A DNA stretch of 64,000 nt from a virus (IMGVR_UViG_2910903598_000005:69058-133057), one strand, 5' to 3'. Positions 7,813 through 64,000 are shown, numbered from the stretch's first letter. The notes: generated from the sequence alone by a model not told the origin. Translations and numbers: made by a program.

Positions 7813-8049
7813 ATGGAAATTTCAAAGAAACAAACTTATGAACAGTATCAGTTACAATGGATGATTGATCACGGTTTTTCATTAAAAGATTTAATGGAAT
7901 CTATGGACAGATATTTTATGAACGATGGAGATTCTATCCAGGAATTGTTTGAGGATTGGGAGTGTAACTGTGGATTTGGCGGTATATTGTATGCTTGTAA
8001 AGATGAAGCAATAGATTGTGGCGAATGTATAGAAGATGAGGAAGAATAG
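7813..8049 (+). CDS. hypothetical acidic Cys-containing protein (78 aa)
   Basis: Ribosome-binding site AAGGAAGG. Confidence 0.5.
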   Translation: MEISKKQTYEQYQLQWMIDHGFSLKDLMESMDRYFMNDGDSIQELFEDWECNCGFGGILYACKDEAIDCGECIEDEEE

Positions 8050-8059
8050 GAGAATAATT

Positions 8060-8332
8060 ATGGAAATTTTAAAGATGACAAGAACAAACATGGTAGTGAT
8101 TCAGACAGTGGAAAAGGAAGAACGTAACACTTTTGACATTGGAAAAATCAGAGTCGCAGCCTTGCCACCGATCGCAAAGAAAGATCTTATCGCAGAACTT
8201 AAAAGCAAGGGCTTCTGCGATGGAATGATCCATACGGTATTACAATGCAAGCTGGAAGATCTAAACGGATATGTGAACGTATGGAAGTATGTAGCGTATA
8301 TCTTAGCCGTAGAACTGATGGAAAGATTATAG
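8060..8332 (+). CDS. hypothetical protein
   Basis: ATG after ribosome-binding site TAGGAGAA. The upstream ATG at 8036 overlaps the preceding gene. Confidence 0.45.
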   Translation: MEILKMTRTNMVVIQTVEKEERNTFDIGKIRVAALPPIAKKDLIAELKSKGFCDGMIHTVLQCKLEDLNGYVNVWKYVAYILAVELMERL

Positions 8333-8347
8333 AAGGGAGCTGGAAAT

Positions 8348-8467
8348 ATGGGAACTTCTTTTAAATTTGTAGATAGTGTAGGCAATATTTATTGGTATAA
8401 ATTTAATTCAGTTGACAAAGCTCGTCATTTTGCATATGTTCATGGTTTATGTTTCTTAGGTAGTTAG
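8348..8467 (+). CDS. small hypothetical protein (39 aa)
   Basis: Ribosome-binding site GAAGGGAG. Below the ORF-track cutoff. Confidence 0.3.
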   Translation: MGTSFKFVDSVGNIYWYKFNSVDKARHFAYVHGLCFLGS

Positions 8468-8494
8468 CAATGGCATAGAAGGAAGGTGGAAATT

Positions 8495-8683
8495 ATGATA
8501 ACAAGAAATACATATCCCGATGGTAGAACGGAAATTTTCTGTACAAATCCAGATGAATACTGGGATCTTAGTATTGAGTACGATCTTGAAGATTGCGGGA
8601 TGAGTGGAAAATATTATGGGTGGGGCTGGAGTCGTGATAACAAACGTAATGTTGATGTTTATTCTAAAAATTTAGAAGAATAG
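8495..8683 (+). CDS. hypothetical protein
   Basis: ATG in the recurring context AAGGTGGAAATTATG. Confidence 0.5.
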   Translation: MITRNTYPDGRTEIFCTNPDEYWDLSIEYDLEDCGMSGKYYGWGWSRDNKRNVDVYSKNLEE

Positions 8684-8699
8684 AAAGTAGGTGGAAAGA

Positions 8700-8954
8700 A
8701 TGAGTCGTAGAACGACAATGACAGCATTAGCGTGCCACGTAGAACGAAAGTATAATACTTTATACTTCACAGAAAATCCTCCGAACGCTGGAATTGATGA
8801 TAGCTTGCATGGATATAGATATTTCTTATTATATAAGAATACGTTCGGAATTTTTCGGAAATATAGAACGCAAGAAGAAGCAATTAACGGCATGACGGAA
8901 ATTTTAAGAGAAGATCCAACTAATCTATTCAATTTCTCTATGTGTCGTGCATAG
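8700..8954 (+). CDS. hypothetical protein
   Basis: ATG after AGGTGGAAAGA. Confidence 0.5.
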   Translation: MSRRTTMTALACHVERKYNTLYFTENPPNAGIDDSLHGYRYFLLYKNTFGIFRKYRTQEEAINGMTEILREDPTNLFNFSMCRA

Positions 8955-9250
8955 CTTATTACATAGCCAATTAAAGGCTTTTACTGTCTGTAATGAAGCA
9001 GACTACACCTTAACGGAAAGACTCGACTATTGAAGCTAATAGTTACGTTAAACGAACGGAATGACTGTACTATTGATTGCTAGTAGTGACGTATTGGAAC
9101 GGAAAAACGGTGGCGTATGGTAGATAAAAGAGTGCTTTTATCGGTGGGTTCAATTTCCACTCCGCCACTTCACACGATGGAAATTATCGTGTATAATATA
9201 AGAGAACAGTTAACTTAAAATCTGACCGCAAGGCAGTCAGTTCCTAAAAA
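8955..9250 (+). ncRNA. Structured intergenic region or possible small RNA, with an extended -10 promoter for the next gene
   Basis: Several stem-loops: CTATTgaagctAATAG, GATAAAAGagtgCTTTTATC (9123-9142), CTGACcgcaaggcaGTCAG. A TGTATAAT extended -10 at about 9191-9199. Confidence 0.25.
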
Positions 9251-9264
9251 GGATGGTGGAAATT

Positions 9265-10017
9265 ATGAAGTACAAAGAACTTATTATGACAGAACAATCT
9301 ACTGGAAAGAAAACGGTGCTTTATGAGAATGAAGAGTTCAAGAACTTTGATTATCTAAGTAATCTTATGATGAAGTATGGGTATAGCGAGAATGATTATG
9401 AAAACCTTAATGATGATATTATGAGTGGAATTGATCACTTTGATGTTATGGAATATGGAAACACAATCGAAACACTTTTATTTGAATATATTAAATATCC
9501 TGAGTGCTTTGAGATCCATAAGATTCCTGAAATGCCTGATGGATTTACAAAAATCACTTATCATGGTTATACAATCAAATTAAATCAATATAACTGTGAT
9601 TGGTACTACGGGAAGAGTTCTGACGGAAGTTTATGTGTGACAAGCACTAAGTACGATTGGAAAAAATACGACAAGATCAAGATACTAGTACAACGTGATT
9701 ATTACGGAAAATTTGAAGAAGAATGGTGGAATATTGTTGACGACAACGGAAATCTTATAGTAAAAATCATGGATGATGATATGGAAAAAGCTGTCGCAGA
9801 TATTAAAGATAATCGTGATCATGCAATGGATTTTGAAGATTGGCTATTATCAACCGATGCAGAAAAGTGGGACGTTGAATGGACTCAAGAAAATTATGAT
9901 AAAGATAGGGCAGATGAGATTATCAGAAATGCTTATAATGACTACCTTAATATGCACTGGAAATATTCATGGTTGGTTAGAATAGTAGCGGAAAATATGA
10001 TCAAGAAGGGAATGTAG
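9265..10017 (+). CDS. hypothetical protein (about 250 aa)
   Basis: ATG in context GGATGGTGGAAATTATG. Long ORF. Confidence 0.6.
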   Translation: MKYKELIMTEQSTGKKTVLYENEEFKNFDYLSNLMMKYGYSENDYENLNDDIMSGIDHFDVMEYGNTIETLLFEYIKYPECFEIHKIPEMPDGFTKITYHGYTIKLNQYNCDWYYGKSSDGSLCVTSTKYDWKKYDKIKILVQRDYYGKFEEEWWNIVDDNGNLIVKIMDDDMEKAVADIKDNRDHAMDFEDWLLSTDAEKWDVEWTQENYDKDRADEIIRNAYNDYLNMHWKYSWLVRIVAENMIKKGM

Positions 10018-33625: not shown

Positions 33626-33763
33626 GGAAACATAGCTCAGTTGGTAGAGCAGGCAATACATAAACATTCATTTTTCTACCTCCATATAAGTATTTTTATT
33701 TATTTACATTTAATTTTCATCACATATAAATTGCCGACACAGGTTCGATTCCTGTTGTTTCCA
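33626..33763 (+). tRNA. tRNA-like gene interrupted by an insertion of about 75 nt in the anticodon loop (identity undetermined)
   Basis: Perfect 7-bp acceptor stem GGAAACA/TGTTTCC. D-arm GCTC-AGTTGGTA-GAGC. Anticodon stem GGCAA ... TTGCC separated by about 74 nt. T-arm ACAGG-TTCGATT-CCTGT. Discriminator A. Terminator immediately downstream. Confidence 0.55.
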
Positions 33764-53172: not shown

Positions 53173-54663
53173 ATGGAGGCAGAGGGAAATGTAATCAGTT
53201 GTTTCTTTAAAGATATGTTGCTTTTGGATGACACTACATTCGAACAACACGATTTCATTACAAAAGATGGGCTTTTTTACTTTTCTATGCTCAAAAAATT
53301 ACGTGAACAGGGCTTCTATTCTCTGGATGAAATCACGATTTTATCCAACCTGTCTGAGAACGCTATAAAAAGATACACTGACATGGGAGGATGGGATTCT
53401 ATTCAACATCAGATAGATATTATCAACACACAGAATTTTGATGTGTATATCGACATTCTGTATAGAGAAAACACTATGCTGAAGATGTATGATGATGGAT
53501 TTAACCTGTTCAAAGAGATAGACATTGACGGCAAGAAAATCGTACCAGTAACACTTTTCAGAAGAATGACCGCCGAGGAAGTTACGGATTGGTATGATGC
53601 AAGACTAAGTACATATGGTACGGGATATTCCAGTAAGATTCTGGAAGAAGAAGAAATTGATTTTGATGATGATTTTATTGATTCCTGCGTGGAAGGTGAA
53701 GAAAATGGAGTTCCATTTGATGTGGCAGGGATTGATATTAATGGCGAAGAAATGAACTGCTTTCCGTTCTTATCCAGACAGATCATGGGTATTCTTGAGG
53801 GAACACTTACTATGATGGGTGGATTCAGTAGTGCAGGTAAATCAACATGGTTTATCACTTTGCTTATGGCATTGCTGAATTATGATAGGAAAGTATTGAT
53901 CATTTCAAACGAAGAAAAAGTAAAGAAATTTAAAGTCAAGTTTATGATTTGGCTTTTGGCGAAGCATAATCGTTATTTTAAGTTGACAAAAAAGAAAATG
54001 ATGTCTGGACAGATTGATGATGCAAGCCGAAGAGAACTAAAAGACGTGCAACAGTTATGGCGAGAACGGTATAAGGGTAGAGTGAAATTCTTACTTATCA
54101 ACGATGCTGATATGACTGTTGTCAAGAAGAAAATTAGAGAACATGTACTTCGCTACGGATATGACACAGTGTTGTATGACACTTTTAAGATTCAAGAAGG
54201 AGATTTTAAAGGTAATCGTACTGATTTATCTTTGGTTCATGACAGTCGAGAGTTAGATAAACTTGCAAAAAAATACAACATTATCATGCTGGCATCTGTG
54301 CAGTTAGCAGAGTATATGAGAGGAAGGCTATTTCTTGATAGCTCTGTTCTTTCAAACTCTAAACAGATCAAAGAAGTATTAGAGAATCTTTTCTTGATGA
54401 GGACTGTATATGACGAAGAACTTGATGAAAAGAGTAAATTCTATTGTCGTCCATTTAGGCTAAAAAAAGTTAATGATAAATGGATTGAGGAAGAATATCA
54501 TCCTGATCGTACTGCGGTGTGGAGAGCTTTATTTGTTGAGAAATGTCGAAGCGGTTCAAACTCATCAGATACAGGAGTTGGTTATCTACTTAAATTCGAT
54601 GGTGATCATTGTATCTTTAGAGAGGTTGCGCAGGCAAGATTTAAACATGGAGAAATCAAATAA
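53173..54663 (+). CDS. DnaB-like replicative DNA helicase
   Basis: Walker A GGFSSAGKST. LLINDADMTV... and MLASVQLAEYMRGR match the DnaB C-terminal RecA-like domain. Confidence 0.7.
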   Translation: MEAEGNVISCFFKDMLLLDDTTFEQHDFITKDGLFYFSMLKKLREQGFYSLDEITILSNLSENAIKRYTDMGGWDSIQHQIDIINTQNFDVYIDILYRENTMLKMYDDGFNLFKEIDIDGKKIVPVTLFRRMTAEEVTDWYDARLSTYGTGYSSKILEEEEIDFDDDFIDSCVEGEENGVPFDVAGIDINGEEMNCFPFLSRQIMGILEGTLTMMGGFSSAGKSTWFITLLMALLNYDRKVLIISNEEKVKKFKVKFMIWLLAKHNRYFKLTKKKMMSGQIDDASRRELKDVQQLWRERYKGRVKFLLINDADMTVVKKKIREHVLRYGYDTVLYDTFKIQEGDFKGNRTDLSLVHDSRELDKLAKKYNIIMLASVQLAEYMRGRLFLDSSVLSNSKQIKEVLENLFLMRTVYDEELDEKSKFYCRPFRLKKVNDKWIEEEYHPDRTAVWRALFVEKCRSGSNSSDTGVGYLLKFDGDHCIFREVAQARFKHGEIK

Positions 54664-54684
54664 TTAAAATGTGCGGTGTGATAT

Positions 54685-55713
54685 ATGTTAGACAATATAA
54701 AAAAAGAACTATTGTCTAATCCTGAAAAAATAAGAGAAGTCTTGGAGCATTTTGATTATTGTCATGTAGTGATCAGAAACACATATATGTCATTTGGTCG
54801 AGATGAGGTCTCTTCAAAGAAGTCCATAGTAATCAATCTGAAAAATAACAAAGCGTTGTTTGTGCATGATTATGCTAGAGCAATCCAAAAAGATTTGTTC
54901 TCATATATTATGCAGCAACGTGGAGTTGATTTTGCAGAGGTTTTAGGAGTTGTTAAAAACATCTTAGGGATTACTGATTACTATGATTTCTTTGATAGAC
55001 AAGGTATTTTTGGCGGATTTTATGAAAGGATTAGAAATCACAATGTAGTTCGAATCCAAACTTATGATGAATCTATATTAGATAAATACAATAATGTAGG
55101 GAATTTAAGATTCCTTAAAGATAATATATCACTTGAAGCACAAAGAACTTTTGGCATTCGGTTTGATACATCATCTCAAGGGATCGCAATTCCGATTAGA
55201 AATCAATTAGGACAACTAATTGGTGTAAAAGAAAGATTTAACTATGATGTTGAAGATGGTGAAATGAAATATTTCTACGATGTTCCGTGTCAAATGTCTC
55301 AAACATTATATGGATATTCTCAGAATTATCAGTATTTAGCCAACGGTGTTGTGTTGATATTTGAGGCAGAGAAATCTGTAATGCAGTGTTTTACATATGG
55401 AATTAGAAACTGTGTGGCACTTGGCAGTGGAACAATCAGCAAGAAACAGGTGCAATTATTATTGGAATTAAATCCTAAAAAAGTAATATTTATGCATGAT
55501 GTTGGCTATGATATTGAGAATATTATGAGAAATATTGACATGGTAAAAGGATACTCAAGATTTGCTGAGATTGAGTTAGGATACTGGGACTTTAATTTAA
55601 GTGAGTATTCCAATAAGGTATCACCGTCCGATATGGGAAAAGAAAAGTTAAATTACATATTAGAAAACGAAATAAAAATGATAGGGGATGAAGACGTCGA
55701 AGAAGAAATATAA
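54685..55713 (+). CDS. DNA primase (DnaG-like, Toprim domain)
   Basis: Toprim region FEAEKSVMQCFTYGIRNCVALGSGTIS...VIFMHDVGYD (E ... DxD). Confidence 0.6.
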   Translation: MLDNIKKELLSNPEKIREVLEHFDYCHVVIRNTYMSFGRDEVSSKKSIVINLKNNKALFVHDYARAIQKDLFSYIMQQRGVDFAEVLGVVKNILGITDYYDFFDRQGIFGGFYERIRNHNVVRIQTYDESILDKYNNVGNLRFLKDNISLEAQRTFGIRFDTSSQGIAIPIRNQLGQLIGVKERFNYDVEDGEMKYFYDVPCQMSQTLYGYSQNYQYLANGVVLIFEAEKSVMQCFTYGIRNCVALGSGTISKKQVQLLLELNPKKVIFMHDVGYDIENIMRNIDMVKGYSRFAEIELGYWDFNLSEYSNKVSPSDMGKEKLNYILENEIKMIGDEDVEEEI

Positions 55714-57307
55714 CATTTTGAACGATTGCAGAGGACTTTTTGAAGATGAGGTGTTTGAAATTATCATGCAGGAGCGTGGTATTGACGATCCAGAGCATTT
55801 TCTAAATCCTACGGAAGATGATTTACTTTCTCTTGATGACTTAAAAAATATTGATAAAGCATATAAGCTTTTGGTAGATGCAGTATACAAAGATAAACGT
55901 ATTGCAGTACATTTTGACACAGATACTGACGGAGTTGCAGCGGGAACTATTATTACACGACATTTAAAAAACATGACAGAAAATCCAGTAGATGTATACA
56001 TTAACCGAGGCAAACAGCATGGATTAGCAAATCAGGACATTGCTAAGTTTTATGGGTATGATTTACTGATTGTCGTTGATAGTTTGGATAAAGACGAGAC
56101 TCAGTATAAGGATTTAAAAGAAACAGGAGTTGATGTGATTGTGTTAGACCACCATGCCATCGATCCAGATGTTCCTTATGACAACTATTGCACATTAGTT
56201 TCTTCTCAGAGAGAATATGAAAATCCACAGCTATCTGGCGCAGGTGTTGTTTGGAAGTTTTGCAAGTATATTGATGAGCAGAATGGTACAGATTATGCAG
56301 ATGATTTGGTCGATCTAGCAGGTGTTGGGCTGATTGCAGATATGATGGATATGAGAGTAATGGAGAATCGTTACATTGTATCCGAAGCTTTGAAAGAAAT
56401 TAGAAATCCTGCGATTAAGAAGATTATTGGTGGATTTGAATTCAACAGCACAGCAGTTGCTTTTAGTATTGCACCGTTGGTTAATGCTGCAAACAGAATG
56501 GATCAGAATGAAATTGCCCTAAATGCTTTCCTTGAAGACGACAATAAAAAGTTACGAGGATATATTAAACAGTTAAAGCAATGCAAAGAAGACCAAAATG
56601 AAGAGGTCGCACAGCTGATGCCAATGATTGTGGAACAGTGTGAAGCTCAGAGTTATAAAAAGATGATCACAACTTTTATCGACACTGATTATGGTATTTC
56701 TGGGTTAATTGGAAACAAATTGCTTGAAAAATACCAGAAGCCGATTCTTGTGCTAAAGAAAAATGAAGATACATATGCAGGATCTATGCGAGCAGTTGGT
56801 GTAAAAGACTTCCGACAGATGTGTAATAACAGTCAGTTGGCTGAAGCAAATGGACATGAACTTGCCAGTGGTATTGAAATTCCTAGAAAGAACTTCGCTG
56901 AGTTCACCTCTTATATAGAAGAAACTCTTTCAGATAAGCCAGAAGATACAACAGTTGATGTCGATATTATGCTTGATATTTCAGACATCACAAGAAAAAT
57001 GGTTGACATGATTAAGAAAATTGATCGTATTTCTGGACAAGGATTTAAACCTGTAAGAGTTTATATTGAAGAGATTGACGACTATGACATTGGTCAGATG
57101 AGCAATTATAAACATCTTGTCCTGAAACCATGTAACAATGATAAATTGTGGATCATTAAATGGAACTACGATGGATCATTTGAGGATATGGAAGACCACT
57201 CTATGATGAATGATGAATTTTGTGCTGTAACTACTCTTGATTGTGGATTCTTTGGCAGAAAGTTTGTGCTGAAAGCAGTGTGTGATTCACTTGAAGAGGT
57301 GGGATGA
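55688..57307 (+). CDS. RecJ-like single-strand DNA exonuclease (DHH/DHHA1)
   Basis: Motifs IAVHFDTDTDGVAAG, VIVLDHH and distal GSMRAVGV/ANGHELASG. Confidence 0.7.
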   Translation: MKTSKKKYNILNDCRGLFEDEVFEIIMQERGIDDPEHFLNPTEDDLLSLDDLKNIDKAYKLLVDAVYKDKRIAVHFDTDTDGVAAGTIITRHLKNMTENPVDVYINRGKQHGLANQDIAKFYGYDLLIVVDSLDKDETQYKDLKETGVDVIVLDHHAIDPDVPYDNYCTLVSSQREYENPQLSGAGVVWKFCKYIDEQNGTDYADDLVDLAGVGLIADMMDMRVMENRYIVSEALKEIRNPAIKKIIGGFEFNSTAVAFSIAPLVNAANRMDQNEIALNAFLEDDNKKLRGYIKQLKQCKEDQNEEVAQLMPMIVEQCEAQSYKKMITTFIDTDYGISGLIGNKLLEKYQKPILVLKKNEDTYAGSMRAVGVKDFRQMCNNSQLAEANGHELASGIEIPRKNFAEFTSYIEETLSDKPEDTTVDVDIMLDISDITRKMVDMIKKIDRISGQGFKPVRVYIEEIDDYDIGQMSNYKHLVLKPCNNDKLWIIKWNYDGSFEDMEDHSMMNDEFCAVTTLDCGFFGRKFVLKAVCDSLEEVG

Positions 57308-58575
57308 TTATGTATGAAGATTTAATTGCAAAAATTATCCCAACATTAAAATTTAAATTTCCATATTCTGTTGAAGATTATGGAAGAAATCTATATCTTG
57401 AAAACTACCATTGTCATAAAGATTTTAGTAATACATCAACTCCAGATTGTGCAGAATCAATTGAAAATTATGCAAAACGTATTCATGAATTTGGTGCAAA
57501 ATGTCTTTATTCAGGGGAGCATGGGTCACAAGGAAACCAGTTTGAAGTATATAAAGTGGCTGAAAAGGAGCATTTGAAATATATTCATTCTGCTGAAGCC
57601 TACTGGGTGAAAGATAGAAAAGAAAAAGACAAAGCAAACTGTCATATGATGATACTTGCGAAAAATGCTGAAGGGAGAGAAGATATTAACTTCGCCCTTT
57701 CTATGGCAAATATTGATGGATATTATTACAAACCAAGAATTGACTTAGAATTACTTTTTAATATTCCAAAAGAGAATGTAATTGTTACATCAGCTTGCTT
57801 ATCTGGTTGGCATTATAAAGATGCAGAGGACATTTGGTTAAAAATACATGACTATTTTGGCGATAATTTCTTTTTAGAAGTGCAGGCTCATAATACTGAT
57901 CCACAAAAAAGACTTAACAGAAAAATCTTAAAACTTGCAAAAGAACACAATATTCAGATCATTTGTGGGCTTGATAGTCATTACATTGATGATAAGACGG
58001 CAGTAAAAAGGGATCAGATTTTAAAGTACAAGCATATTGAATATCCAGAAGAATTTGGATGGTATATGGATTATCCAGACACAACAACGGTTATAGAGCG
58101 ATTTCAAGAGCAAGGAGTTCTTTCTGATGAAGAAGTCTTAACTGCTATTATGAACACAAACGTGTTCATGTCAGAATGCGAAGAAATTGTTTTTGACAGA
58201 AAATTTAAAATTCCAAGCGTTCATAAAGATAAAACATATGAAGGCAAATGTGCTATTTATAAGAAAATATTAAACAAAGCCTATGCTAAAGAAAAAGAAA
58301 AATCAAAAGAAAAAGCAGATGGAATTAGGTATGAAGCAAAACAAGTCATGGATTCAGGAGTTGTAGATTACTTTTTAACAAGTAAAGCAATTGTAGATGA
58401 TGCAGTAAATTGCGAAGGTGGAATATTAACTACTACGTCAAGAGGTAGCGCTGCATCATTCATTACAAATAAGTTGCTAGGATTAACAACGGTAGATAGA
58501 TTCAATGCAGATATTCCTATTTATCCAGAACGCTTTTTAACAAAAGACCGTGTTTTAGCAGGTCAGATGCCCGAT
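57304..58575 (+). CDS. DNA polymerase III alpha subunit, exon 1 (PHP domain), ending at the conserved MPD of the MPDxDxDF motif
   Basis: ENYHCHKDFSNTSTPDCAESIENYAKRIHEFGAKCLYSGEHGSQGNQFEVYKVAEKEHLKYIHSAEAYW is a PHP domain. The last residues are ...ERFLTKDRVLAGQMPD, then an in-frame stop. Confidence 0.65.
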
Positions 58576-59717
58576 TAAAACAATAGTGCATATAAACCAG
58601 TAAAGGAGGAATTTTTATTACAGGTATTTACTGTATTGAAAATATTGTAAATCATAAAAAATATGTTGGACAAAGTGTAGATATAAATGATCGATGGAAA
58701 CATCATCTAAATAGTTTAAGAAGAAACGATCATGCAAATTGTTATTTGCAACGTAGTTTTAATAAATATGGTGAAGAAAGTTTTAAACATTATATTTTAG
58801 AAGAGTGTAAAAGAGAAGATCTTGATGAGAAAGAGAAGAGTTGGATTAAAAAATTAAACACATATAAAAATGGCTACAATATGAATGGTGGTGGATCTGG
58901 ATGTTATATCCCAAATCCTACAGATGAATATAGAGAAAAAATGCGAAGAATGGTTATGGGGACGAATAACCCAAATTATGGGCATAAATGGACTGAAGAA
59001 ATGAAAAGAAATTTATCTCAAAAAAAGATTGGGAAAAATTTAAATGAAAATAACCCAAATGCCAAGTCTGTAATATGTGTTGAAACTCTAAAAATATATA
59101 AGACACAAAAGGATGCTGCAAAAGAATTACATATTAAAAATACATCATCAATATCAAGGTGCTTATTAAATAAACAAAATTTAGCTTATGGTTATCATTT
59201 TGTTTTATATACAAAAGAAATGTATGAATATTTATTAAACAATCAATTTGAGTATTTGTGCGAATGTAATGTCGGACGAAAAATCTATGCAGATATGACT
59301 AATAAAAGATTTTATTTGTTGAAAGATATGATGAAAAAATTGTATCCACTACTAAATTGCACTCAACGAGAACTAAAACAATTTCTTAAACAAGAAAAGT
59401 TCAATGTAAATAACGTAGAATATGTACTGTTATAATAGTCGCTATATGTAGTGATATATATAGAAAACCCAGAATATCAGGGGAAGTCCTAAAACCTTGT
59501 CCACCAAGCATTAGAGAAATCAAAATGTGGCATTGTTAACTGCAATGATATGGTAACAGCGGCAAGGATTGGATAATCCTGAGAGATAGCCCTAAGTTGT
59601 TTAAATATACAATATGGGAAGCTCGCAACGACTACCAATGGGAATCCGAGATAATATCGACGATTATGGTATAGTCTACTCCCCTATTAAAATATCGGGA
59701 AACCGAGGGTATCAAGG
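58576..59717 (+). mobile_element. Putative group I intron carrying a GIY-YIG homing-endonuclease ORF, inserted in the Pol III alpha gene
   Basis: Lies between conserved polymerase segments. The 3' ~280 nt has group-I-like core elements: R-like GCAACGACTACC (59625-59636) pairing with S-like TATAGTCTAC (59672-59681) through GACTA/TAGTC, and a P4-like AGGATT/AATCCT (59565-59580). Boundaries are approximate, not confirmed. Confidence 0.5.
58617..59435 (+). CDS. GIY-YIG homing endonuclease (I-TevI-like), probable non-AUG (ATT) start
   Basis: GIYCIENIVNHKKYVGQSVDINDRWKHH is a GIY-YIG motif. The frame is open from 58596. Ribosome-binding site AAAGGAGGA at 58602-58610. There is no ATG, GTG or TTG before the GIY motif; ATT at 58617 has 7-nt spacing. 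Confidence 0.55.
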   Translation: MTGIYCIENIVNHKKYVGQSVDINDRWKHHLNSLRRNDHANCYLQRSFNKYGEESFKHYILEECKREDLDEKEKSWIKKLNTYKNGYNMNGGGSGCYIPNPTDEYREKMRRMVMGTNNPNYGHKWTEEMKRNLSQKKIGKNLNENNPNAKSVICVETLKIYKTQKDAAKELHIKNTSSISRCLLNKQNLAYGYHFVLYTKEMYEYLLNNQFEYLCECNVGRKIYADMTNKRFYLLKDMMKKLYPLLNCTQRELKQFLKQEKFNVNNVEYVLL

Positions 59718-61745
59718 ATTGACCTAAATGTAGCTACTCAGGAGCCATTTGTGAAAGCTGCAAAAAAACTTCTTGGAGAGCATGGATGTTATCCGTTAAT
59801 GGCTATAGAAAAGTTAAAAGAGAAAGCAGCATGGCAATTATATGCTGGAGCTAATGATGTTAGTTCAGAAGATGCAAATAGAATTTCAAAATATCTTGAT
59901 GATTATAATAAAGCATTGAAATATGCTGATGAAGAAGATAAAGATTTTATTCATGTTGAAGACTACATTCCAGAAGAATATGTTGATTTATTTAAACAAA
60001 GCAATGAGTACCAAGGAATCACTATCAATCTAAAAGTACATGCTTGTGGACATTTTATATTCGACGGAGATATTCGTAGAGAAGTAGGATTAATTAGTGC
60101 TGTTTCAGAAACGACTGGGAAAAGAACAATTTGTGCCGCCATTGAAGGTGGCTATCTTGATGAATTTGGATATGTAAAAGAAGATTTTCTTATTGTAGAT
60201 AGTGTTTATCTTACATATAAATTTTTTCACAGTATAGGAATGGAGGTTCCTACATCTGAAGAACTGAGAGAGATGATAGAAGGAGATCATAAAACATGGG
60301 ATATTTATGCAAAAGGAATTACTTGTTGTGTTAACCAATGTGAAAAAGAAGCGACAACAAATAGAGCAAAGAAATATAAGCCACAAAATTTAGCAGAATT
60401 AAGTAGTTTCATTGCTGCAATTAGACCAGGATTTGCATCTTTATTAAATACTTTTTTAAATCGTGAACCATATTCAACAGGCGAAAAGAAAATTGATGAG
60501 TTGTTACAAGATACAGCACATTTTATGATTTATCAAGAGTCAATTATGAAGGTATTATCTTTCCTGCAATTGAAGATGGGCGAAACGTATGGAGTTATTA
60601 AAAATATCTCGAAAAAAAAATATAAAGCTCATCCTGAAAAGTTAAAAGAACTGAAAGAAAGATTAAAAGATGGTTGGCAAATTGAAATTGGAGAACTTAA
60701 TAATTTCAATAATATATGGGAAGTTATAGACTCATCAGCTTCGTACGCCTTCAACTCTCCGCATGCTTGGTCGATGGCTGAGGATTCTGCCTATCAGGCA
60801 TGGTTTAAAGCTCATTATACGAAAATGTTCTATGAAGTAGCAATTAATCATTACCAAGAAAAAAATAAGAAAGATAAAATTGATGCTCTAGTAAAAGAAG
60901 CCATTAAATTTTGGGGATATAAATTGGGAGATTATCGGTTTGGAGCAGACAATAGAAAAGTCACGATTGATGAAGAACATAAAATTATATATCCCAATTT
61001 ATCAAGCATTAAAGGATTTGGAGAAGGTGTCGCCAATTCACTATATGATTTAGGACAGGCTAAATACAGCTCATTCATAGAAGTAATCAATGTATTAAAG
61101 CAGAATCATCTCAATAAAACAGTGATAGACAAATTAATTAAAATTAATTATTTTGTAGAGTTCGGAGATGCGAATACCTTATTAGAAACAGTTAAATATT
61201 ATGAATTATTAAATGGGAAAAAGCAATTGTCCAAAGAAAAGGCGATAGAATATCACATTTCTTCTGATTTACTTTTGAAGTATGGTCATGAGACAAAAAC
61301 ACTTTATAATCAATTAGATTCAGAACAATTACTTATTGAATCTATAAAAAATATTCCATACAGAGAATTGTCTTTGAAAGAAAAATTAGACAATCAGAGA
61401 AATGTTCTCGGAATTGTAAGCTATGCTAACGTAAAAGTTAATAAACGATTATATTATGTTTCAGATCTTGATGTTAAAAAATCCATCGTTAACATTCAGT
61501 TATATGAAATTTACTCTGGAAAAACACAGAAAGTAAAAATGTGGACAAACCAATATAAGAAGAACCCATTCGATGAAGGAGATATTCTATATCTGAAATC
61601 AGTTGAGAAGAAACATAAAAAAGAACCAACTGGGGAGATCAATACAAAAACAGGAAAGAAAATCTACAAAGATGTGCCAGATAAATTTGAGTTTTGGCTT
61701 AAGAATTTCACTATTAAAAATGACGTAGAGGAGGAATTAGTATAA
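59718..61745 (+). CDS. DNA polymerase III alpha subunit, exon 2 (palm/fingers core); the 5' boundary is a hypothesis
   Basis: ASYAFNSPHAWSMAEDSAYQAWFKAHYTKMF matches the Pol III alpha FNKSHAAAY...LKAHYP motif. The frame is open from 59691 (IDLNVATQ... could continue MPD-IDL). The track start is GTG 59751. Confidence 0.6.
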   Translation: MDLNVATQEPFVKAAKKLLGEHGCYPLMAIEKLKEKAAWQLYAGANDVSSEDANRISKYLDDYNKALKYADEEDKDFIHVEDYIPEEYVDLFKQSNEYQGITINLKVHACGHFIFDGDIRREVGLISAVSETTGKRTICAAIEGGYLDEFGYVKEDFLIVDSVYLTYKFFHSIGMEVPTSEELREMIEGDHKTWDIYAKGITCCVNQCEKEATTNRAKKYKPQNLAELSSFIAAIRPGFASLLNTFLNREPYSTGEKKIDELLQDTAHFMIYQESIMKVLSFLQLKMGETYGVIKNISKKKYKAHPEKLKELKERLKDGWQIEIGELNNFNNIWEVIDSSASYAFNSPHAWSMAEDSAYQAWFKAHYTKMFYEVAINHYQEKNKKDKIDALVKEAIKFWGYKLGDYRFGADNRKVTIDEEHKIIYPNLSSIKGFGEGVANSLYDLGQAKYSSFIEVINVLKQNHLNKTVIDKLIKINYFVEFGDANTLLETVKYYELLNGKKQLSKEKAIEYHISSDLLLKYGHETKTLYNQLDSEQLLIESIKNIPYRELSLKEKLDNQRNVLGIVSYANVKVNKRLYYVSDLDVKKSIVNIQLYEIYSGKTQKVKMWTNQYKKNPFDEGDILYLKSVEKKHKKEPTGEINTKTGKKIYKDVPDKFEFWLKNFTIKNDVEEELV

Positions 61746-61795
61746 TTCAATTTTACAAATATACCGACAAGGAAATCAAAGAACTCATCAGCTCG

Positions 61796-62278
61796 ATGAC
61801 AATCCTGGTCGACACAAGGGAGCAAAAGGCTGATCATATCATAGGTTACTTCGATAGAAAAAGCGTAAATCATAAAAAGAAAGCATTGAATTATGGAGAC
61901 TACAGTTTCATGATTCCTGCAAATGAGAAGCTTGGTATTCAGAGAGATATTTATTTTGACAGCAAAGTATGTATTGAACGCAAAGGAAGTCTTGAAGAAA
62001 TCAGTGGCAATTTATCAAAAGATCGTGCCAGATTCGAAAAAGAGCTAAGTCTTGCACCAGAGACAAAAGTTATTCTGCTTGAAAACGCCAATTACTCAGA
62101 TATTGCAGATGGCAATTATAACACGCAGTATAACAAGAAATCATTCATTGGATCATTGCACAGCTTTTGGTTTAAATACAATGTGCCGATATTCTTCATG
62201 CCAGATAATAAATATTCTGGGCTGTTTATTCGATTGTATTTTGAATATTACTTTAAAAATTATTTAAAAGGGAAATGA
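61796..62278 (+). CDS. ERCC4-type (XPF/Mus81/Hef-like) nuclease-domain protein
   Basis: ILVDTREQK ... NYGDYSF ... IERKGSLEE match the ERCC4 motifs (VDxRE, GDY, ERKx3E). The upstream frame is open from 61724 with GAGGAGGA at 61727-61734, so the start may lie earlier. Confidence 0.5.
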   Translation: MTILVDTREQKADHIIGYFDRKSVNHKKKALNYGDYSFMIPANEKLGIQRDIYFDSKVCIERKGSLEEISGNLSKDRARFEKELSLAPETKVILLENANYSDIADGNYNTQYNKKSFIGSLHSFWFKYNVPIFFMPDNKYSGLFIRLYFEYYFKNYLKGK

Positions 62279-62294
62279 GGTGCTGCCTAAATAA

Positions 62295-64000
62295 TGGAGA
62301 GTCAGACATGCGGAAAGGTATGCGAGTTTGAAATGATTCCTACATATCAGATATTTTATAATGAAGAATCAATGTTTGGTATCTATGCGTTTTGTACAAA
62401 AGACCAGATACCACAATTCAGTCCATACAATGATAATAAATTTGATGACTCAGGAGATAAAGAATATGTTGCAAGTAAACTTGTTGGAGAAGTTCAACAG
62501 TTATATATTGGGACAAAGTATAATGTAAAAGCGACATGTATTTATTCTCAAAAATATCACGAATATCAATATAAGCCGATTTCGGTTGTTGCAGATGTTC
62601 CAAAAACACAGACCGATCAGCTAATGTTTTTAAAAACACAAGCGAAAGAATCAATTGCTGAAAGCTTGCTTGCTGAATATCCAAATATCATTGAGGATGT
62701 TATGGCAGGAAAATGCAAGACTATCGATACATCTATGATTAAAGGACTTGGCAACAAGACATGGGCGAAGCTCAGAGAGAAGATCATTAATAATTATGTG
62801 ATTTCCGAGGTTGTAATTATGCTACAGCCTCATGGGATTACTTTTAATATGATTAAGAAATTGGTAGAAGCTGAGCCAGATTCAGAAAAGTTAAAGTATA
62901 AAATCAACACAAATCCTTACATTTTAACTAAGATCAGAGGTCTTGGATTTAAGAAAGTTGATGATATTGCTTTAAAGATCCGTCCAGAATTGAGAGATTC
63001 CAAGTATCGACTTGATTATTTTATGACGTATTATTTAACGAATCTTGGCGAAAGTGACGGACATACATATATGGCGATTGCCACATTGCGATCAGAAGTT
63101 AGTACAACAGTTGGAGAGTGTCTGCATATATTTGACGATTATGTTGAAAATGATTTTCCTCCAGACATCTATGTTAGTGGCGAACTAATTGGTTTGAAAA
63201 AGTACCATGACACAGAAATGAATATACTGGCATTGTTGCAAGAACGCAGAGATACTAATTCTACCAAGAAGAAAGAGATAATCACTGTAAACGAAATTGG
63301 ACAAGTTATTGCCGAAGTTGAAAAAGAAGAAGGATTTACTTTTAGTGAAGAACAAAACAAAGGTATTTATACTGCATTACAAACAAATGTCGTCTTGATT
63401 AGTGGTGAAGCTGGAACTGGTAAAACTACCTTATTAAAGCCGATCATCAGATGTTATAAGAAAAGAAATTACAGCATTGCTGCATGTGCATTATCTGCGA
63501 AAGCAGCACAGAGAATCCAAGAAGCAACAGGATTAGAAGCAAAAACTATTCATAGATTGCTTGAGGCACAAGGCGTAGATTCATTTATGCACGATGCCAA
63601 CAATCCGTTGCCAATAGATGTAGTTCTTTTAGATGAGGCAAGTATGGTTAATGCAGGGTTGTTCTATCAATTACTTTTGGCAATTCGTCCAGGTACAAAG
63701 ATTATTATTAGCGGAGATCATATGCAGTTACCACCAATTGGCTATGGCAATATTTTTTCTGATCTGCTCAAAATGGATGAGTTGGCTTCTGTGAAATTAA
63801 CGAAGCCAATGAGACAAGCAGAAAAGTCTGGTATTCTTAGTGATGCTAGAAAAGTGCGTAGAGCGATTTCACCAATTGAGGATTTTAGTGCTAAACAAGT
63901 TCATGGAGAACTGCATGATATGTTTTACATCTTCAGAAATAATCGTGAGAATATTTTTAATTTGGTTGTAAAGCAGTTCATGACGTGTGTTAAACAAGAC
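62295..64000 (+). CDS. RecD2/Dda-like SF1 DNA helicase (partial, runs off the window end)
   Basis: Open frame to 64000. HhH-like LTKIRGLGFKKVDDIALKI, Walker A GEAGTGKTT, Walker B VVLLDEASMV, motif III ISGDHMQLPPIG. Not in the ORF track because it has no stop. Confidence 0.7.

What the first reader, a model, noticed from the sequence alone, without database searches (positions are those of the whole stretch)
57304..61745. Pol III alpha (PHP + core) gene split exactly at the conserved MPD|xDxDF motif by a ~1.14-kb insert with a GIY-YIG endonuclease and group-I-like core
What the sequence shows:
- Exon 1 (PHP domain) terminates with ...GQMPD followed by a stop.
- Exon-2-like polymerase motifs resume in an open frame from about 59691 (IDLNVATQ... 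then ...FNSPHAWSMAEDSAYQAWFKAHY).
- The intervening DNA holds a GIY-YIG ORF.
- The 3' ~280 nt has R-like (GCAACGACTACC) and S-like (TATAGTCTAC) elements able to form a P7 (GACTA/TAGTC) and a P4-like AGGATT/AATCCT hairpin, typical of group I intron cores.
- A self-splicing intron ending at G59717 would join gaT|att, giving MPD-IDL.

Alternative: a genuinely split two-polypeptide polymerase with a free-standing homing endonuclease between the halves.

Established knowledge: group I introns with GIY-YIG homing endonuclease genes are common in phage DNA polymerase and nucleotide-metabolism genes and insert at highly conserved motifs.
Basis: partly seen in the sequence, partly recalled or inferred. 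Interest (0 to 1): 0.6.

Follow-up and report, generated by a model that had tools for sequence, protein, structure and literature searches.

The report
Group I intron splitting phage polymerase gene
A phage DNA polymerase III alpha gene is interrupted, exactly between the codons of its two catalytic aspartates, by a 1142-base group I intron that carries its own GIY-YIG homing endonuclease gene; this is a well-supported new example of a well-known kind of mobile element.

Summary
The insert is exactly window 58576-59717 (1142 nt). A 98-99% identical intronless relative (L003) is colinear up to T58575 and again from A59718, so the insert follows a U and ends in G.

Pfam places exon 1 at positions 11-103 and exon 2 at 106-259 of one DNA_pol3_alpha domain. 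All 120 best homologs read GQMPDID[LM]N without a break.

The last ~280 nt match Rfam Intron_gpI (50.1 bits, gathering 50), but only in a 361-nt scan; whole-window scans miss it. Fourteen related cores support P2-P9, including the P3/P7 pseudoknot: 98.2% of cells paired and 37 of 66 pairs with compensatory changes.

The GIY-YIG + NUMOD3 ORF lies in the P1 loop, closed by a covarying long-range helix. An ORF-less relative has a compact P1 hairpin at the same site.

The same PD|ID site is occupied in polymerases only 36-58% identical. Splicing and endonuclease activity are inferred, not shown.

Verdict: real, a new member of a known kind, of modest interest. Curiosities are a conserved non-canonical AUU/AUA/AUC start for the endonuclease and a CCC codon linked to intron presence.

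The parts
57304..58575 (+). Exon 1 of the Pol III alpha (DnaE/YorL-like) gene. It holds the PHP domain and the first part of the palm. The last codon, GAT, encodes the first catalytic Asp (..GQMPD). The ATG at 57304 overlaps the stop of the upstream RecJ-like gene; relatives are called from ATG 57310.
   Evidence: (PHP; DNA_pol3_alpha profile 11-103).
58576..59717 (+). Group I intron, 1142 nt. It begins right after U58575 and ends with the terminal G59717. Its first three bases, UAA, are an in-frame stop for exon 1.
   Evidence: colinearity with the intronless L003 breaks exactly here; RF00028, 50.1 bits; same boundaries in L091, L093, L099, L096, L105.
58572..58577 (+). P1 5' strand, CGAU|UA, containing the 5' splice site. 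U58575 forms the U.G wobble with G59438.
   Evidence: Read from the sequence. The ORF-less L105 folds the same bases into a local hairpin, CGAUUA-ACUUA-UAGUCG. C58572 is found in all intron-bearing alleles but in only 5 of 75 intronless ones.
58582..58593 (+). 5' strand of the P1 extension. This long-range helix closes the loop that holds the ORF; it pairs with 59420-59431.
   Evidence: duplex energy -16.5 kcal/mol against shuffles at -8.0 +/- 2.4 (1/500). Four relatives give -22 to -25.6 (0/500) with different sequences, i.e. compensatory changes.
58602..58609 (+). Shine-Dalgarno-like AAAGGAGG upstream of the endonuclease ORF.
   Evidence: AAGGAG or GGAG occupies the same place in L091, L093 and L099.
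58617..59435 (+). GIY-YIG + NUMOD3 homing endonuclease ORF (272 codons plus stop). The likely start is AUU 58617. Its last codons (..YVLL-stop) lie within the P1 extension.
   Evidence: (I-TevI catalytic domain, E=2e-17, aligned from residue 2; GIY, YVG, Arg, Glu and Asn retained).
59420..59431 (+). 3' strand of the P1 extension.
59436..59441 (+). Internal guide sequence UAGUCG (P1 3' strand).
   Evidence: Read from the sequence. AGUCG is conserved in all introns at the dnaE site.
59442..59463 (+). P2 hairpin (59442-49 with 59456-63).
   Evidence: helix 1: 7 of 8 pairs have compensatory changes.
59468..59642 (+). P3 (59468-71 with 59639-42) enclosing P4 (59477-82 / 59577-82), P5 (59486-89 / 59571-74), the extended P5a-c domain (59495-59567, with a GAAA hairpin), P6 (59583-85 / 59622-24), P6a (59590-92 / 59616-18) and the 5' strand of P7 (59630-34).
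   Evidence: helices 2-11. The P3 pair at columns 41/222 is C-G in 8 sequences and U-A in 6. (RNAalifold).
59644..59664 (+). P8 hairpin.
   Evidence: helix 13, invariant pairs, so the comparison says nothing for or against; alignment.
59672..59676 (+). P7 3' strand, UAGUC (S element). It pairs with GACUA 59630-34 (R element).
   Evidence: helix 12, invariant in all 14 sequences.
59681..59709 (+). P9 (59681-83 with 59707-09) enclosing the hairpin UCGG-GAAA-CCGA (59695-59706).
   Evidence: helices 14-15 (compensatory changes in 1 of 3 and 3 of 4 pairs).
59718..61745 (+). Exon 2 of the Pol III alpha gene. It starts with ATT GAC (Ile, then the second catalytic Asp) and holds the rest of the palm, the fingers and the HhH domain.
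   Evidence: (DNA_pol3_alpha profile 106-259, finger, HHH_6).

Best explanation
Window 58576-59717 is a mobile group I intron inside the Pol III alpha (DnaE/YorL-type) polymerase gene of a large SPbeta-like phage or prophage of gut Lachnospiraceae.

Proposed mechanism:
1. The gene is transcribed as one pre-mRNA.
2. A ribosome translating exon 1 stops at the UAA formed by the first three intron bases.
3. The RNA folds so that the last exon bases CGAU plus UA pair with the guide sequence UAGUCG 860 nt downstream (P1, with U58575.G59438 at the splice site). A 12-bp extension helix brings the two together and loops out the endonuclease ORF.
4. The P3-P9 core then carries out the two guanosine-initiated transesterifications and joins ..CCC GAU to AUU GAC...
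5. This restores the motif MPD-IDLN, and so both catalytic aspartates, in one 1099-residue polymerase.
6. The looped-out ORF encodes an I-TevI-like GIY-YIG endonuclease. It would cut intronless alleles of the same conserved site during mixed infection and so copy the intron in (homing).
7. The ORF appears to start at a weak AUU codon and its 3' end is part of the P1 extension. This should keep its translation low and stop it competing with ribozyme folding.

Shown here: the exact boundaries, ribozyme homology, covariation-supported structure, intact endonuclease motifs, an intronless allele, and occupation of the same site in distant homologs.

Inferred: splicing in vivo, endonuclease activity and target, use of the AUU start, and the role of the stop codon.
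For: Boundaries and exon context:
- blastn against the intronless L003 gives window 54001-58575 = L003 6692-11266 and window 59718-64000 = L003 11267-15550.
- All 120 best homologs are contiguous GQMPDID[LM]N. 77 of 80 viral-contig relatives match across the site without a break.
- One Pfam domain is cut at profile positions 103|106.
- MPD|IDLNV aligns to Thermus aquaticus Pol III alpha S-M-P-D463-I-D465.

Ribozyme:
- RF00028 scores 50.1 bits, E=5e-12.
- The core is 76% identical to the annotated phiCD211 Intron_gpI and partly similar to intron-rich Staphylococcus, Listeria, Enterococcus and SPbeta-like phages.
- RNAalifold on 14 related cores gives 65 pairs, 35 with compensatory changes.
- My P2-P9 model with the P3/P7 pseudoknot gives 98.2% of cells paired and 37 of 66 pairs with double changes. 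Slid controls give 26-40% paired and 7-9 such pairs; 0 of 500 shuffles reach the observed values.

P1:
- The ORF-less L105 has a local P1 hairpin at the same site.
- The long-range P1 extension is significant in 5 of 5 ORF-bearing relatives.

Selection:
- Exon dN/dS is 0.05-0.08 between intron-bearing lineages, with dS 1.5-3.3.
- Over the same lineages the ribozyme core stays about 93-95% identical (by eye from the alignment).

Endonuclease:
- GIY-YIG + NUMOD3; I-TevI catalytic residues are retained; dN/dS is 0.24.

Mobility signatures:
- The same site is occupied in DnaE homologs 36-58% identical.
- Relatives include a version with a premature stop (L093, identical to the Eubacterium segne BX4 copy L112), a frameshifted one (L095), a truncated one (L096) and an ORF-less one (L105).
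- Window and L004 differ at 1 intron position against 38 in the 4.7 kb of flanks. L004's 3' exon carries the alleles of the intronless L003 from 27 nt downstream of the site.
- No terminator-like site lies between the exons.

Background: in-frame stops at intron starts and tight control of ORFs that overlap core structure are described for bacterial and phage group I introns in PMC3984707.
Against: - No RNA data: splicing has not been observed.
- The Rfam score is only at threshold, and standard whole-window scans do not report the intron.
- Single-sequence folding energies are not exceptional (z = -1.4 and -1.6).
- P1 is short (5-6 bp), and I could not establish a convincing P10 (at most about 4 bp by eye).
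- P7 and P8 are invariant, so covariation says nothing about them.
- The endonuclease ORF lacks a canonical start codon, so it may be poorly expressed or not expressed at all.
- The 14 cores were collected with a pattern taken from this intron's own P7 region, so they are a biased sample of close relatives.
Confidence: 0.9

Rival explanations
1. Genes in pieces: the polymerase is truly split into two polypeptides (PHP/N-palm and C-palm/fingers) by a free-standing GIY-YIG endonuclease gene, and the two pieces assemble without RNA splicing. The model is the Aeromonas phage Aeh1 nrdA gene split by mobE.
For: - Exon 1 ends with a stop codon.
- An AGGAG lies 6 nt upstream of GTG 59751 in the window, so a second polypeptide could in principle initiate there.
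- Free-standing endonucleases that split phage genes are known (from my own knowledge; not looked up here).
Against: - A product starting at 59751 lacks IDLNVATQEPF, including the Asp aligned to Taq D465.
- The AGGAG is not conserved: L004, which carries the intron, has A at 59744 like the intronless L003.
- The roughly 285 nt between the endonuclease stop and exon 2 match a group I model and show pervasive compensatory changes. This model does not explain that.
- An ORF-less relative (L105) has the 265-nt ribozyme alone at the same site, so the ribozyme alone accounts for the interruption there.
Confidence: 0.04
2. Decaying element: the insert is a group I intron that no longer splices, or splices too poorly. 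The polymerase gene in this phage is then a pseudogene and the prophage is replication-defective or relies on host polymerase.
For: - There is no experimental splicing data.
- The endonuclease lacks a canonical start.
- Relatives carry degenerate endonuclease genes.
- The Rfam score is at threshold.
Against: - Both exons are under strong purifying selection between intron-bearing lineages (dN/dS 0.05-0.08).
- The ribozyme core is far better conserved than neighbouring synonymous sites, and every tested helix keeps its pairing.
- The window's own sequence forms all the modelled pairs.
Confidence: 0.05
3. An intein or other protein-level element: the interruption is removed after translation.
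For: Inteins are common in replication proteins, including DnaE (PMC4760082 and PMC2677866, listed).
Against: - The insert begins with an in-frame stop, and the endonuclease ORF is in another frame (41 nt offset).
- No intein or Hint domain appears in Pfam.
- The insert has RNA structure, not a continuous ORF.
Confidence: 0.005

Closest known systems
Phage group I introns with GIY-YIG endonucleases, archetype T4 td intron / I-TevI
   Same: - A self-splicing group I ribozyme sits in a conserved nucleotide-metabolism or replication gene.
- It encodes an endonuclease with an I-TevI-type catalytic domain (E=2e-17) plus a NUMOD3 linker motif.
- An in-frame stop lies at or near the intron start.
- The ORF's ends touch ribozyme structure, which implies restrained translation (PMC3984707).
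   Different: - The host gene is a C-family (DnaE-type) polymerase, not td, nrdB or sunY.
- The ORF is looped out of P1. In T4 td it is in P6a (from memory).
- The endonuclease is only about 30-35% identical to any phage GIY-YIG protein in GenBank phages.
- The start appears to be AUU/AUA/AUC rather than AUG.
Clostridium (Clostridioides) phage phiCD211 / phiCDIF1296T Intron_gpI
   Same: This is the closest ribozyme in annotated phages: 76% identity over about 285 nt. It has the same P2-P9 architecture and is part of alignment A1.
   Different: - It sits between ORFs annotated 'minor tail protein' and 'tail tape measure protein', not in a polymerase.
- It has a different guide sequence (AGCCCC against AGUCGC).
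- No endonuclease is annotated upstream of the core in that record.
Group I introns in phage DNA polymerase genes (Bacillus phages SPO1/SP82 with I-HmuI/II; cyanophage Pf-WMP3 with I-PfoP3I)
   Same: A mobile group I intron interrupts the phage's own replicative polymerase at a conserved motif (PMC3428280 and the SPO1/SP82 reference listed).
   Different: - Those polymerases are family A (Pol I-like) and their endonucleases are HNH nickases.
- Here the polymerase is family C and the endonuclease is GIY-YIG.
SPbeta-group prophage introns (bnrdE/bnrdF; split yonO in vB_BsuS-Goe11)
   Same: - The phage type is the same: the replication module has yorH/yorI/yorK/yorL-like synteny.
- A 53-nt stretch at the 3' end of the split yonO insert in Goe11 is 89% identical to this intron.
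- Introns in SPbeta ribonucleotide reductase genes are documented (PMC8270828).
   Different: My literature searches found no description of an intron in yorL/dnaE of SPbeta-like phages. The hosts here are Lachnospiraceae, not Bacillus.

Membership tests
Group I intron (Rfam RF00028) | Match to the covariance model at or above the gathering score | tested here: met
   50.1 bits against a gathering score of 50, E=5.4e-12, at window 59422-59699 in a 361-nt scan. The 1.5-kb and 64-kb scans miss it, which I attribute to the speed filters.
Group I intron (Rfam RF00028) | Conserved core helices P3-P8, including the P3/P7 pseudoknot, supported by comparative data | tested here: met
   66 pairs, 98.2% of cells paired, 37 pairs with compensatory changes, 0 of 500 shuffles as high, slid controls 26-40%. 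P3 covaries (C-G in 8 sequences, U-A in 6). P7 and P8 are invariant, so uninformative.
Group I intron (Rfam RF00028) | 5' splice site after a U that forms a U.G wobble in P1 with an internal guide sequence; the intron ends in G | tested here: met
   The boundaries from the intronless allele put U58575 before the intron and G59717 at its end. CGAU|UA pairs with UAGUCG 59436-41. A local P1 hairpin of the same bases occurs in the ORF-less L105. Six of six dnaE-site relatives share U...G boundaries.
Group I intron (Rfam RF00028) | P10 pairing between the guide sequence and the 3' exon | tested here: inconclusive
   By eye there is at most a 4-bp AUUG/UAAU pairing in the window, and it is not conserved in L105. 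P10 is weak or dispensable in many introns (from my own knowledge).
Group I intron (Rfam RF00028) | Guanosine-dependent self-splicing | not testable with these tools
   Needs an in vitro transcript with GTP and Mg2+, or RNA-seq.
GIY-YIG homing endonuclease, I-TevI type | N-terminal GIY-YIG catalytic domain with the GIY and YxG motifs and the conserved Arg, Glu and Asn | tested here: met
   PF01541, E=1.9e-11. The alignment to I-TevI 1MK0/1LN0 (E=2e-17) shows GIY, YVG, the Arg of DRWK, the Glu of EKEKSW and NGYN aligned.
GIY-YIG homing endonuclease, I-TevI type | Linker and C-terminal DNA-binding modules (NUMOD-type motifs) | tested here: met
   NUMOD3 (PF07460, E=1.3e-6) at residues 104-136 of the 274-residue translation from 58611. 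The C-terminal ~130 residues have no Pfam match, so the DNA-binding domain is not identified.
GIY-YIG homing endonuclease, I-TevI type | Cleaves the intronless allele near the insertion site and promotes homing | not testable with these tools
   Only indirect signs. The same site is occupied in distant homologs. The flanks are mosaic around a nearly identical intron. The CCC codon is linked to intron presence.
C-family DNA polymerase (Pol III alpha / DnaE) | PHP domain, palm with three catalytic Asp residues, fingers and HhH, in one polypeptide | tested here: met
   Met only for the conceptually spliced product. PHP, DNA_pol3_alpha (11-103 plus 106-259), finger and HHH_6 are present. MPDIDLNV aligns to Taq MPD463-I-D465, and KEDFL aligns to KMDFL. 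D463/D465 follow from residue counting in the alignment; I did not count the third Asp, which I recall as D618.
Genes-in-pieces with a free-standing endonuclease | No ribozyme between the pieces, and each piece has its own translation start and complete motifs | tested here: not met
   A ribozyme is present. The second piece could start only at GTG 59751, after the second catalytic Asp.
Intein | In-frame insertion translated with the host protein, with Hint-domain motifs | tested here: not met
   An in-frame stop occupies the first intron codon, the ORF is in a different frame, and there is no Hint or intein Pfam hit.

The most novel reading that the evidence does not exclude
This intron lineage reconciles splicing with endonuclease expression in an unusual, conserved way. 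The GIY-YIG ORF sits in the P1 loop. Its last codons form one strand of a 12-22 bp helix that builds P1. It is started from a near-cognate AUU/AUA/AUC codon behind a good Shine-Dalgarno sequence (window, L091, L093 and L099 all lack ATG/GTG/TTG). Ribosomes would then rarely enter the ORF and unwind P1. The endonuclease might be made mainly by re-initiation after termination at the UAA that is the intron's first codon. The intron-linked CCC codon (6 of 6 intron-bearing lineages against 5 of 75 intronless alleles) would be an exon change selected to strengthen P1.
Probability: 0.35. Interest if true: 0.45.

Novelty: new member of a known kind. Interest (0 to 1): 0.35.

Why it matters
**Annotation.** The polymerase of this phage group would otherwise be called as two truncated genes, or as a pseudogene with a stray endonuclease. 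The correct product is one 1099-residue enzyme.

**Mobile-element biology.**
- It extends the list of phage genes colonised by group I introns to a C-family (DnaE-type) replicative polymerase.
- The insertion is precisely between the two catalytic aspartate codons. This is a textbook case of a homing endonuclease site chosen because the host cannot mutate it.
- The relatives found here give a compact natural series for studying the homing cycle and exon-guide co-evolution: an intact endonuclease, one with a premature stop, one frameshifted, one truncated, an ORF-less intron, and the same ribozyme scaffold with LAGLIDADG-type or other ORFs.

**Method.** A standard Infernal/Rfam pass over the contig misses this intron, so such elements are probably under-counted in metagenomic phage genomes.

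Tried and rejected
- **Rfam scans of 1.5 kb and of the whole window** found no group I hit. I put this down to the speed filters, because a 361-nt scan gives 50.1 bits.
- **ARAGORN on the window** found nothing. It was relevant only to the tRNA side observation.
- **A guide sequence near the intron's 5' end** (by eye): none pairs with CGAU. This led to the long-range P1.
rejected by covariation.
- **RNAalifold's pairing of ACCC 59467-70 with GGGU 59707-10**: rejected in favour of canonical P3. The P3 partner covaries on both sides (C-G in 8, U-A in 6), whereas the alternative changes on one side only. The GGG is also needed for P9, which has its own compensatory change in L096.
- **Predicting the 5' exon ends of related introns in other genes from their guide sequences**: no clean result, so dropped.
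- **Single-sequence MFE z-scores**: weak (-1.4, -1.6) and given little weight.
- **Promoter and terminator scan**: nothing above chance.
- **Literature searches for a described dnaE/yorL group I intron**: none found. The library is incomplete, so this is weak evidence of novelty.
- **Subgroup assignment (IA2, IB, IC)**: not attempted rigorously. Only one hairpin fits between P3' and P7', and P5 is extended, so I leave the subgroup open.
- **No covariance model was built from A1**, because I judged 311 columns likely to exceed the calibration limit. I used nhmmer with A1 instead; it finds only this one copy in the window and none in L003.

Full report
**1. The observation**

The ORF table and sequence show the following.
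- An ORF at 57304-58578 ends ...LAGQMPD-TAA.
- A second frame is open from 59691. It reads IDLNVATQEPFVKAAKK from 59718, and its first canonical start is GTG 59751.
- Between them lies an ORF with a GIY...YVG motif.

Pfam assigns these parts as follows.
- Exon 1 holds PHP plus positions 11-103 of the DNA_pol3_alpha model.
- Exon 2 holds positions 106-259 of the same model, then the finger and HhH domains.
- The middle ORF holds GIY-YIG and NUMOD3.

A single protein domain is therefore cut in two.

**2. Exact boundaries**

A search with the conceptually spliced protein returned 2325 homologs. The best 120 are all full-length (1075-1109 aa) and all read GQMPDID[LM]N without a break.

The best hit, P0001, is 99% identical. 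It is encoded on a 129.7-kb contig (L003). blastn gives window 54001-58575 = L003 6692-11266 and window 59718-64000 = L003 11267-15550.
- The insert is therefore exactly 58576-59717 (1142 nt), with no ambiguity of register.
- It follows a U and ends in G, as a group I intron should.

**3. The insertion site in the protein**

The spliced protein aligns with Thermus aquaticus Pol III alpha (2HPI, 3E0D). MPDIDLNV lies on S-M-P-D463-I-D465-T-D-F, by residue counting in the alignment. KEDFL lies on KMDFL.

D463, D465 and D618 are the catalytic carboxylates as I recall from the published Taq Pol III alpha structures; I did not look this up here. On that basis the intron lies between the codons of the first two catalytic aspartates. 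Only the spliced product has all three.

**4. The RNA**

*Rfam.* Scans of 1.5 kb and of the whole window found no intron. A 361-nt scan, where the filters are laxer, gives RF00028 Intron_gpI at 59422-59699 with 50.1 bits (gathering score 50) and E=5e-12.

*Similar sequences.*
- The region is 76% identical to the annotated Intron_gpI of Clostridium phage phiCD211.
- Its 3' third resembles sequences in hundreds of Staphylococcus, Listeria, Enterococcus and Bacillus phages.
- These include the 3' end of the insert that splits yonO in SPbeta-like phage Goe11.

*Comparative structure.* A pattern from the P7 region retrieved 18 viral contigs, giving 14 distinct cores.
- RNAalifold on the alignment A1 predicts 65 pairs, 35 with compensatory changes.
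- I wrote a full P2-P9 model including the P3/P7 pseudoknot and counted it.
- 98.2% of cells are paired, against 85.4% in shuffles and 26-40% when the partners are slid.
- 37 of 66 pairs have double changes, against 7-9 in the slid controls. None of 500 shuffles reaches any observed measure.
- P3 covaries cleanly (C-G in 8 sequences, U-A in 6).

Those bases are the 3' strands of P5a, P5 and P4.

**5. P1 and the position of the ORF**

No guide sequence lies near the 5' splice site. The bases CGAU|UA (58572-77) are instead complementary to UAGUCG (59436-41), immediately upstream of P2. U58575 is opposite G59438.

Two lines of evidence support this long-range P1.
- The ORF-less relative L105 has a 265-nt intron at the same site of a DnaE only about 37% identical. 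There the same bases form a local hairpin, CGAUUA-ACUUA-UAGUCG, and the minimum-energy fold recovers it.
- In all five ORF-bearing relatives, the first ~50 nt of the intron pair with the ~45 nt before the guide sequence far better than shuffled sequences do. The values are -16.5 to -25.6 kcal/mol against about -7.7 +/- 2.4, with 0-1 of 500 shuffles as good. The helix sequences differ between relatives, for example ACAAUAAUAC/GUAUUAUUGU in L091 and GUAAUUGAAU/AUUCAAUUAC in L099.

In the window this helix is 58582-93 with 59420-31. The endonuclease ORF is thus looped out of an extended P1, and its last codons (..YVLL-stop) are one strand of that helix.

**6. The endonuclease**
- Its N-terminal 90 residues align to the I-TevI catalytic domain (1MK0, 1LN0; E=2e-17). 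GIY, YVG and the conserved Arg, Glu and Asn are in place. NUMOD3 follows.
- The nearest proteins in GenBank phages are only about 30-35% identical.
- No ATG, GTG or TTG lies upstream of the GIY motif. The first (TTG 58746) would delete the GIY, YVG and conserved Arg motifs.
- An AAAGGAGG at 58602-09 is followed 7 nt later by AUU 58617, which aligns with residue 2 of I-TevI.
- The same arrangement recurs in the relatives. L093 has AUU, directly preceded by TAA. L091 has AUC-AUA. L099 has AUA, with TGA three codons upstream.
- I infer a weak, non-canonical start. This has not been shown.
- Between the window and L091 the ORF has dN/dS 0.24.

**7. Signs of function and of mobility**

*Function.*
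- Exon dN/dS between intron-bearing lineages is 0.05-0.08, with synonymous sites saturated (dS 1.5-3.3).
- Over the same lineages the ribozyme core stays about 93-95% identical (by eye from the alignment).
- Together with the covariation, this argues that the RNA is needed.

*Mobility.*
- 77 of 80 related viral contigs match across the site without a break. Three carry the intron there: the L004/L080 contig, L091 and L093.
- L093 is identical to a prophage in Eubacterium segne BX4 (L112). This places the hosts in Lachnospiraceae.
- The same PD|ID site is also occupied in polymerases only 36-58% identical: L095, L096, L098, L099 and L105.
- A related intron sits at a second site of another DnaE (L107).
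- Endonuclease states span the whole cycle. The window, L091 and L099 have intact ORFs. L093 has a premature TGA, L095 a frameshift and L096 a truncation, and L105 has no ORF.
- The same ribozyme scaffold carries LAGLIDADG-like or other ORFs elsewhere (L110, L107).
- The window and L004 differ at one position in the intron but at 38 in the 4.7 kb of flanks. From 27 nt downstream of the site, L004 carries the alleles of the intronless L003. This mosaic fits recombination or co-conversion around the intron.

*A linked exon change.* The Pro codon before GAU is CCC in the window, L004 and the five relatives whose 5' junction is held (L091, L093, L096, L099, L105). In 75 intronless alleles it is CCA in 43, CCT in 25, CCC in 5 and CCG in 2. 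That C pairs with G59441 in P1. The link could reflect selection for P1 stability, co-conversion from the donor, or protection from the endonuclease. I cannot tell which.

**8. Rival explanations**
- **A truly split polymerase.** This is unlikely. The second piece would lack the second catalytic Asp. The AGGAG before GTG 59751 is not conserved even in L004. The model also leaves the conserved, covarying 285 nt unexplained.
- **A dead intron.** Purifying selection on both exons and on the core argues against it.
- **An intein.** The reading frames exclude it.

**9. What is known**

Group I introns with GIY-YIG or HNH endonucleases in phage polymerase, ribonucleotide reductase and terminase genes are textbook material. 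So are their in-frame stops and the control of ORFs that overlap ribozyme structure (PMC3984707; PMC3428280; PMC8270828).

My searches found no description of one in a phage dnaE/yorL gene. The library is partial, so I rate this a new member of a known kind.

**10. Context**

The neighbours in L003 are DnaB-type helicase, a YorH-like protein, a RecJ-like DHH protein, an ERCC4 nuclease, RecD2-like helicases, a ligase and NrdD. This matches an SPbeta-like replication module. No terminator-like site separates the exons.

Noticed in passing
window 33626-33763 (+): A tRNA-like gene (Rfam tRNA, 46.4 bits) has intact acceptor, D and T arms and an anticodon stem GGCAA/UUGCC, but about 70 nt where the 7-nt anticodon loop should be. 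ARAGORN does not call it. The interrupted form is conserved, with small indels, in about 45 related viral contigs. In one of them (L135) the same spot instead holds a HEARO RNA (RF02033, 98.9 bits), which I recall as the IscB-associated omega RNA. I do not know whether the 67-nt insert is a short intron, a transposon scar or something functional.
   Followed up: partly
window 58602-58619; L091, L093, L099 equivalents: The GIY-YIG endonuclease ORF has no ATG, GTG or TTG before its catalytic motif in four diverged relatives. Each has a Shine-Dalgarno sequence followed by AUU, AUA or AUC two codons before the Gly of GIY. In L093 a TAA directly precedes the AUU; in L099 a TGA lies three codons upstream of the AUA.
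   Followed up: partly
window 58570-58572 (codon CCC): The Pro codon before the splice site is CCC in every intron-bearing allele seen (window, L004, L091, L093, L096, L099, L105) but in only 5 of 75 intronless alleles (CCA 43, CCT 25, CCG 2). Its third base pairs with the guide sequence in P1.
   Followed up: partly
L107 ~7963-9269 (IMGVR_UViG_3300044534_000199): A related ribozyme core, with a different ATG-started ORF, interrupts a distant DnaE homolog at a second site, between residues aligned to exon-2 positions 292 and 345. The PD|ID site of that gene is uninterrupted.
   Followed up: partly
L002 (Bacillus phage vB_BsuS-Goe11, yonO_1 / hypothetical protein / yonO_2): The phage RNA polymerase gene yonO is annotated as two pieces around a hypothetical ORF. 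The 53 nt just before yonO_2 are 89% identical to the 3' end of this intron. This suggests an unannotated group I intron of the same family.
   Followed up: no
window 59422-59699 against whole-window scans: Method point: the group I intron reaches the Rfam gathering score only when a few hundred bases are scanned. Gathering and E-value scans of the 64-kb window, and a 1.5-kb scan, return nothing.
   Followed up: yes
L001 3692-4275 (Clostridium phage phiCD211): The annotated Intron_gpI lies between ORFs called 'minor tail protein' and 'tail tape measure protein'. These are probably two exons of one tape-measure gene. I did not check the exon junction.
   Followed up: no
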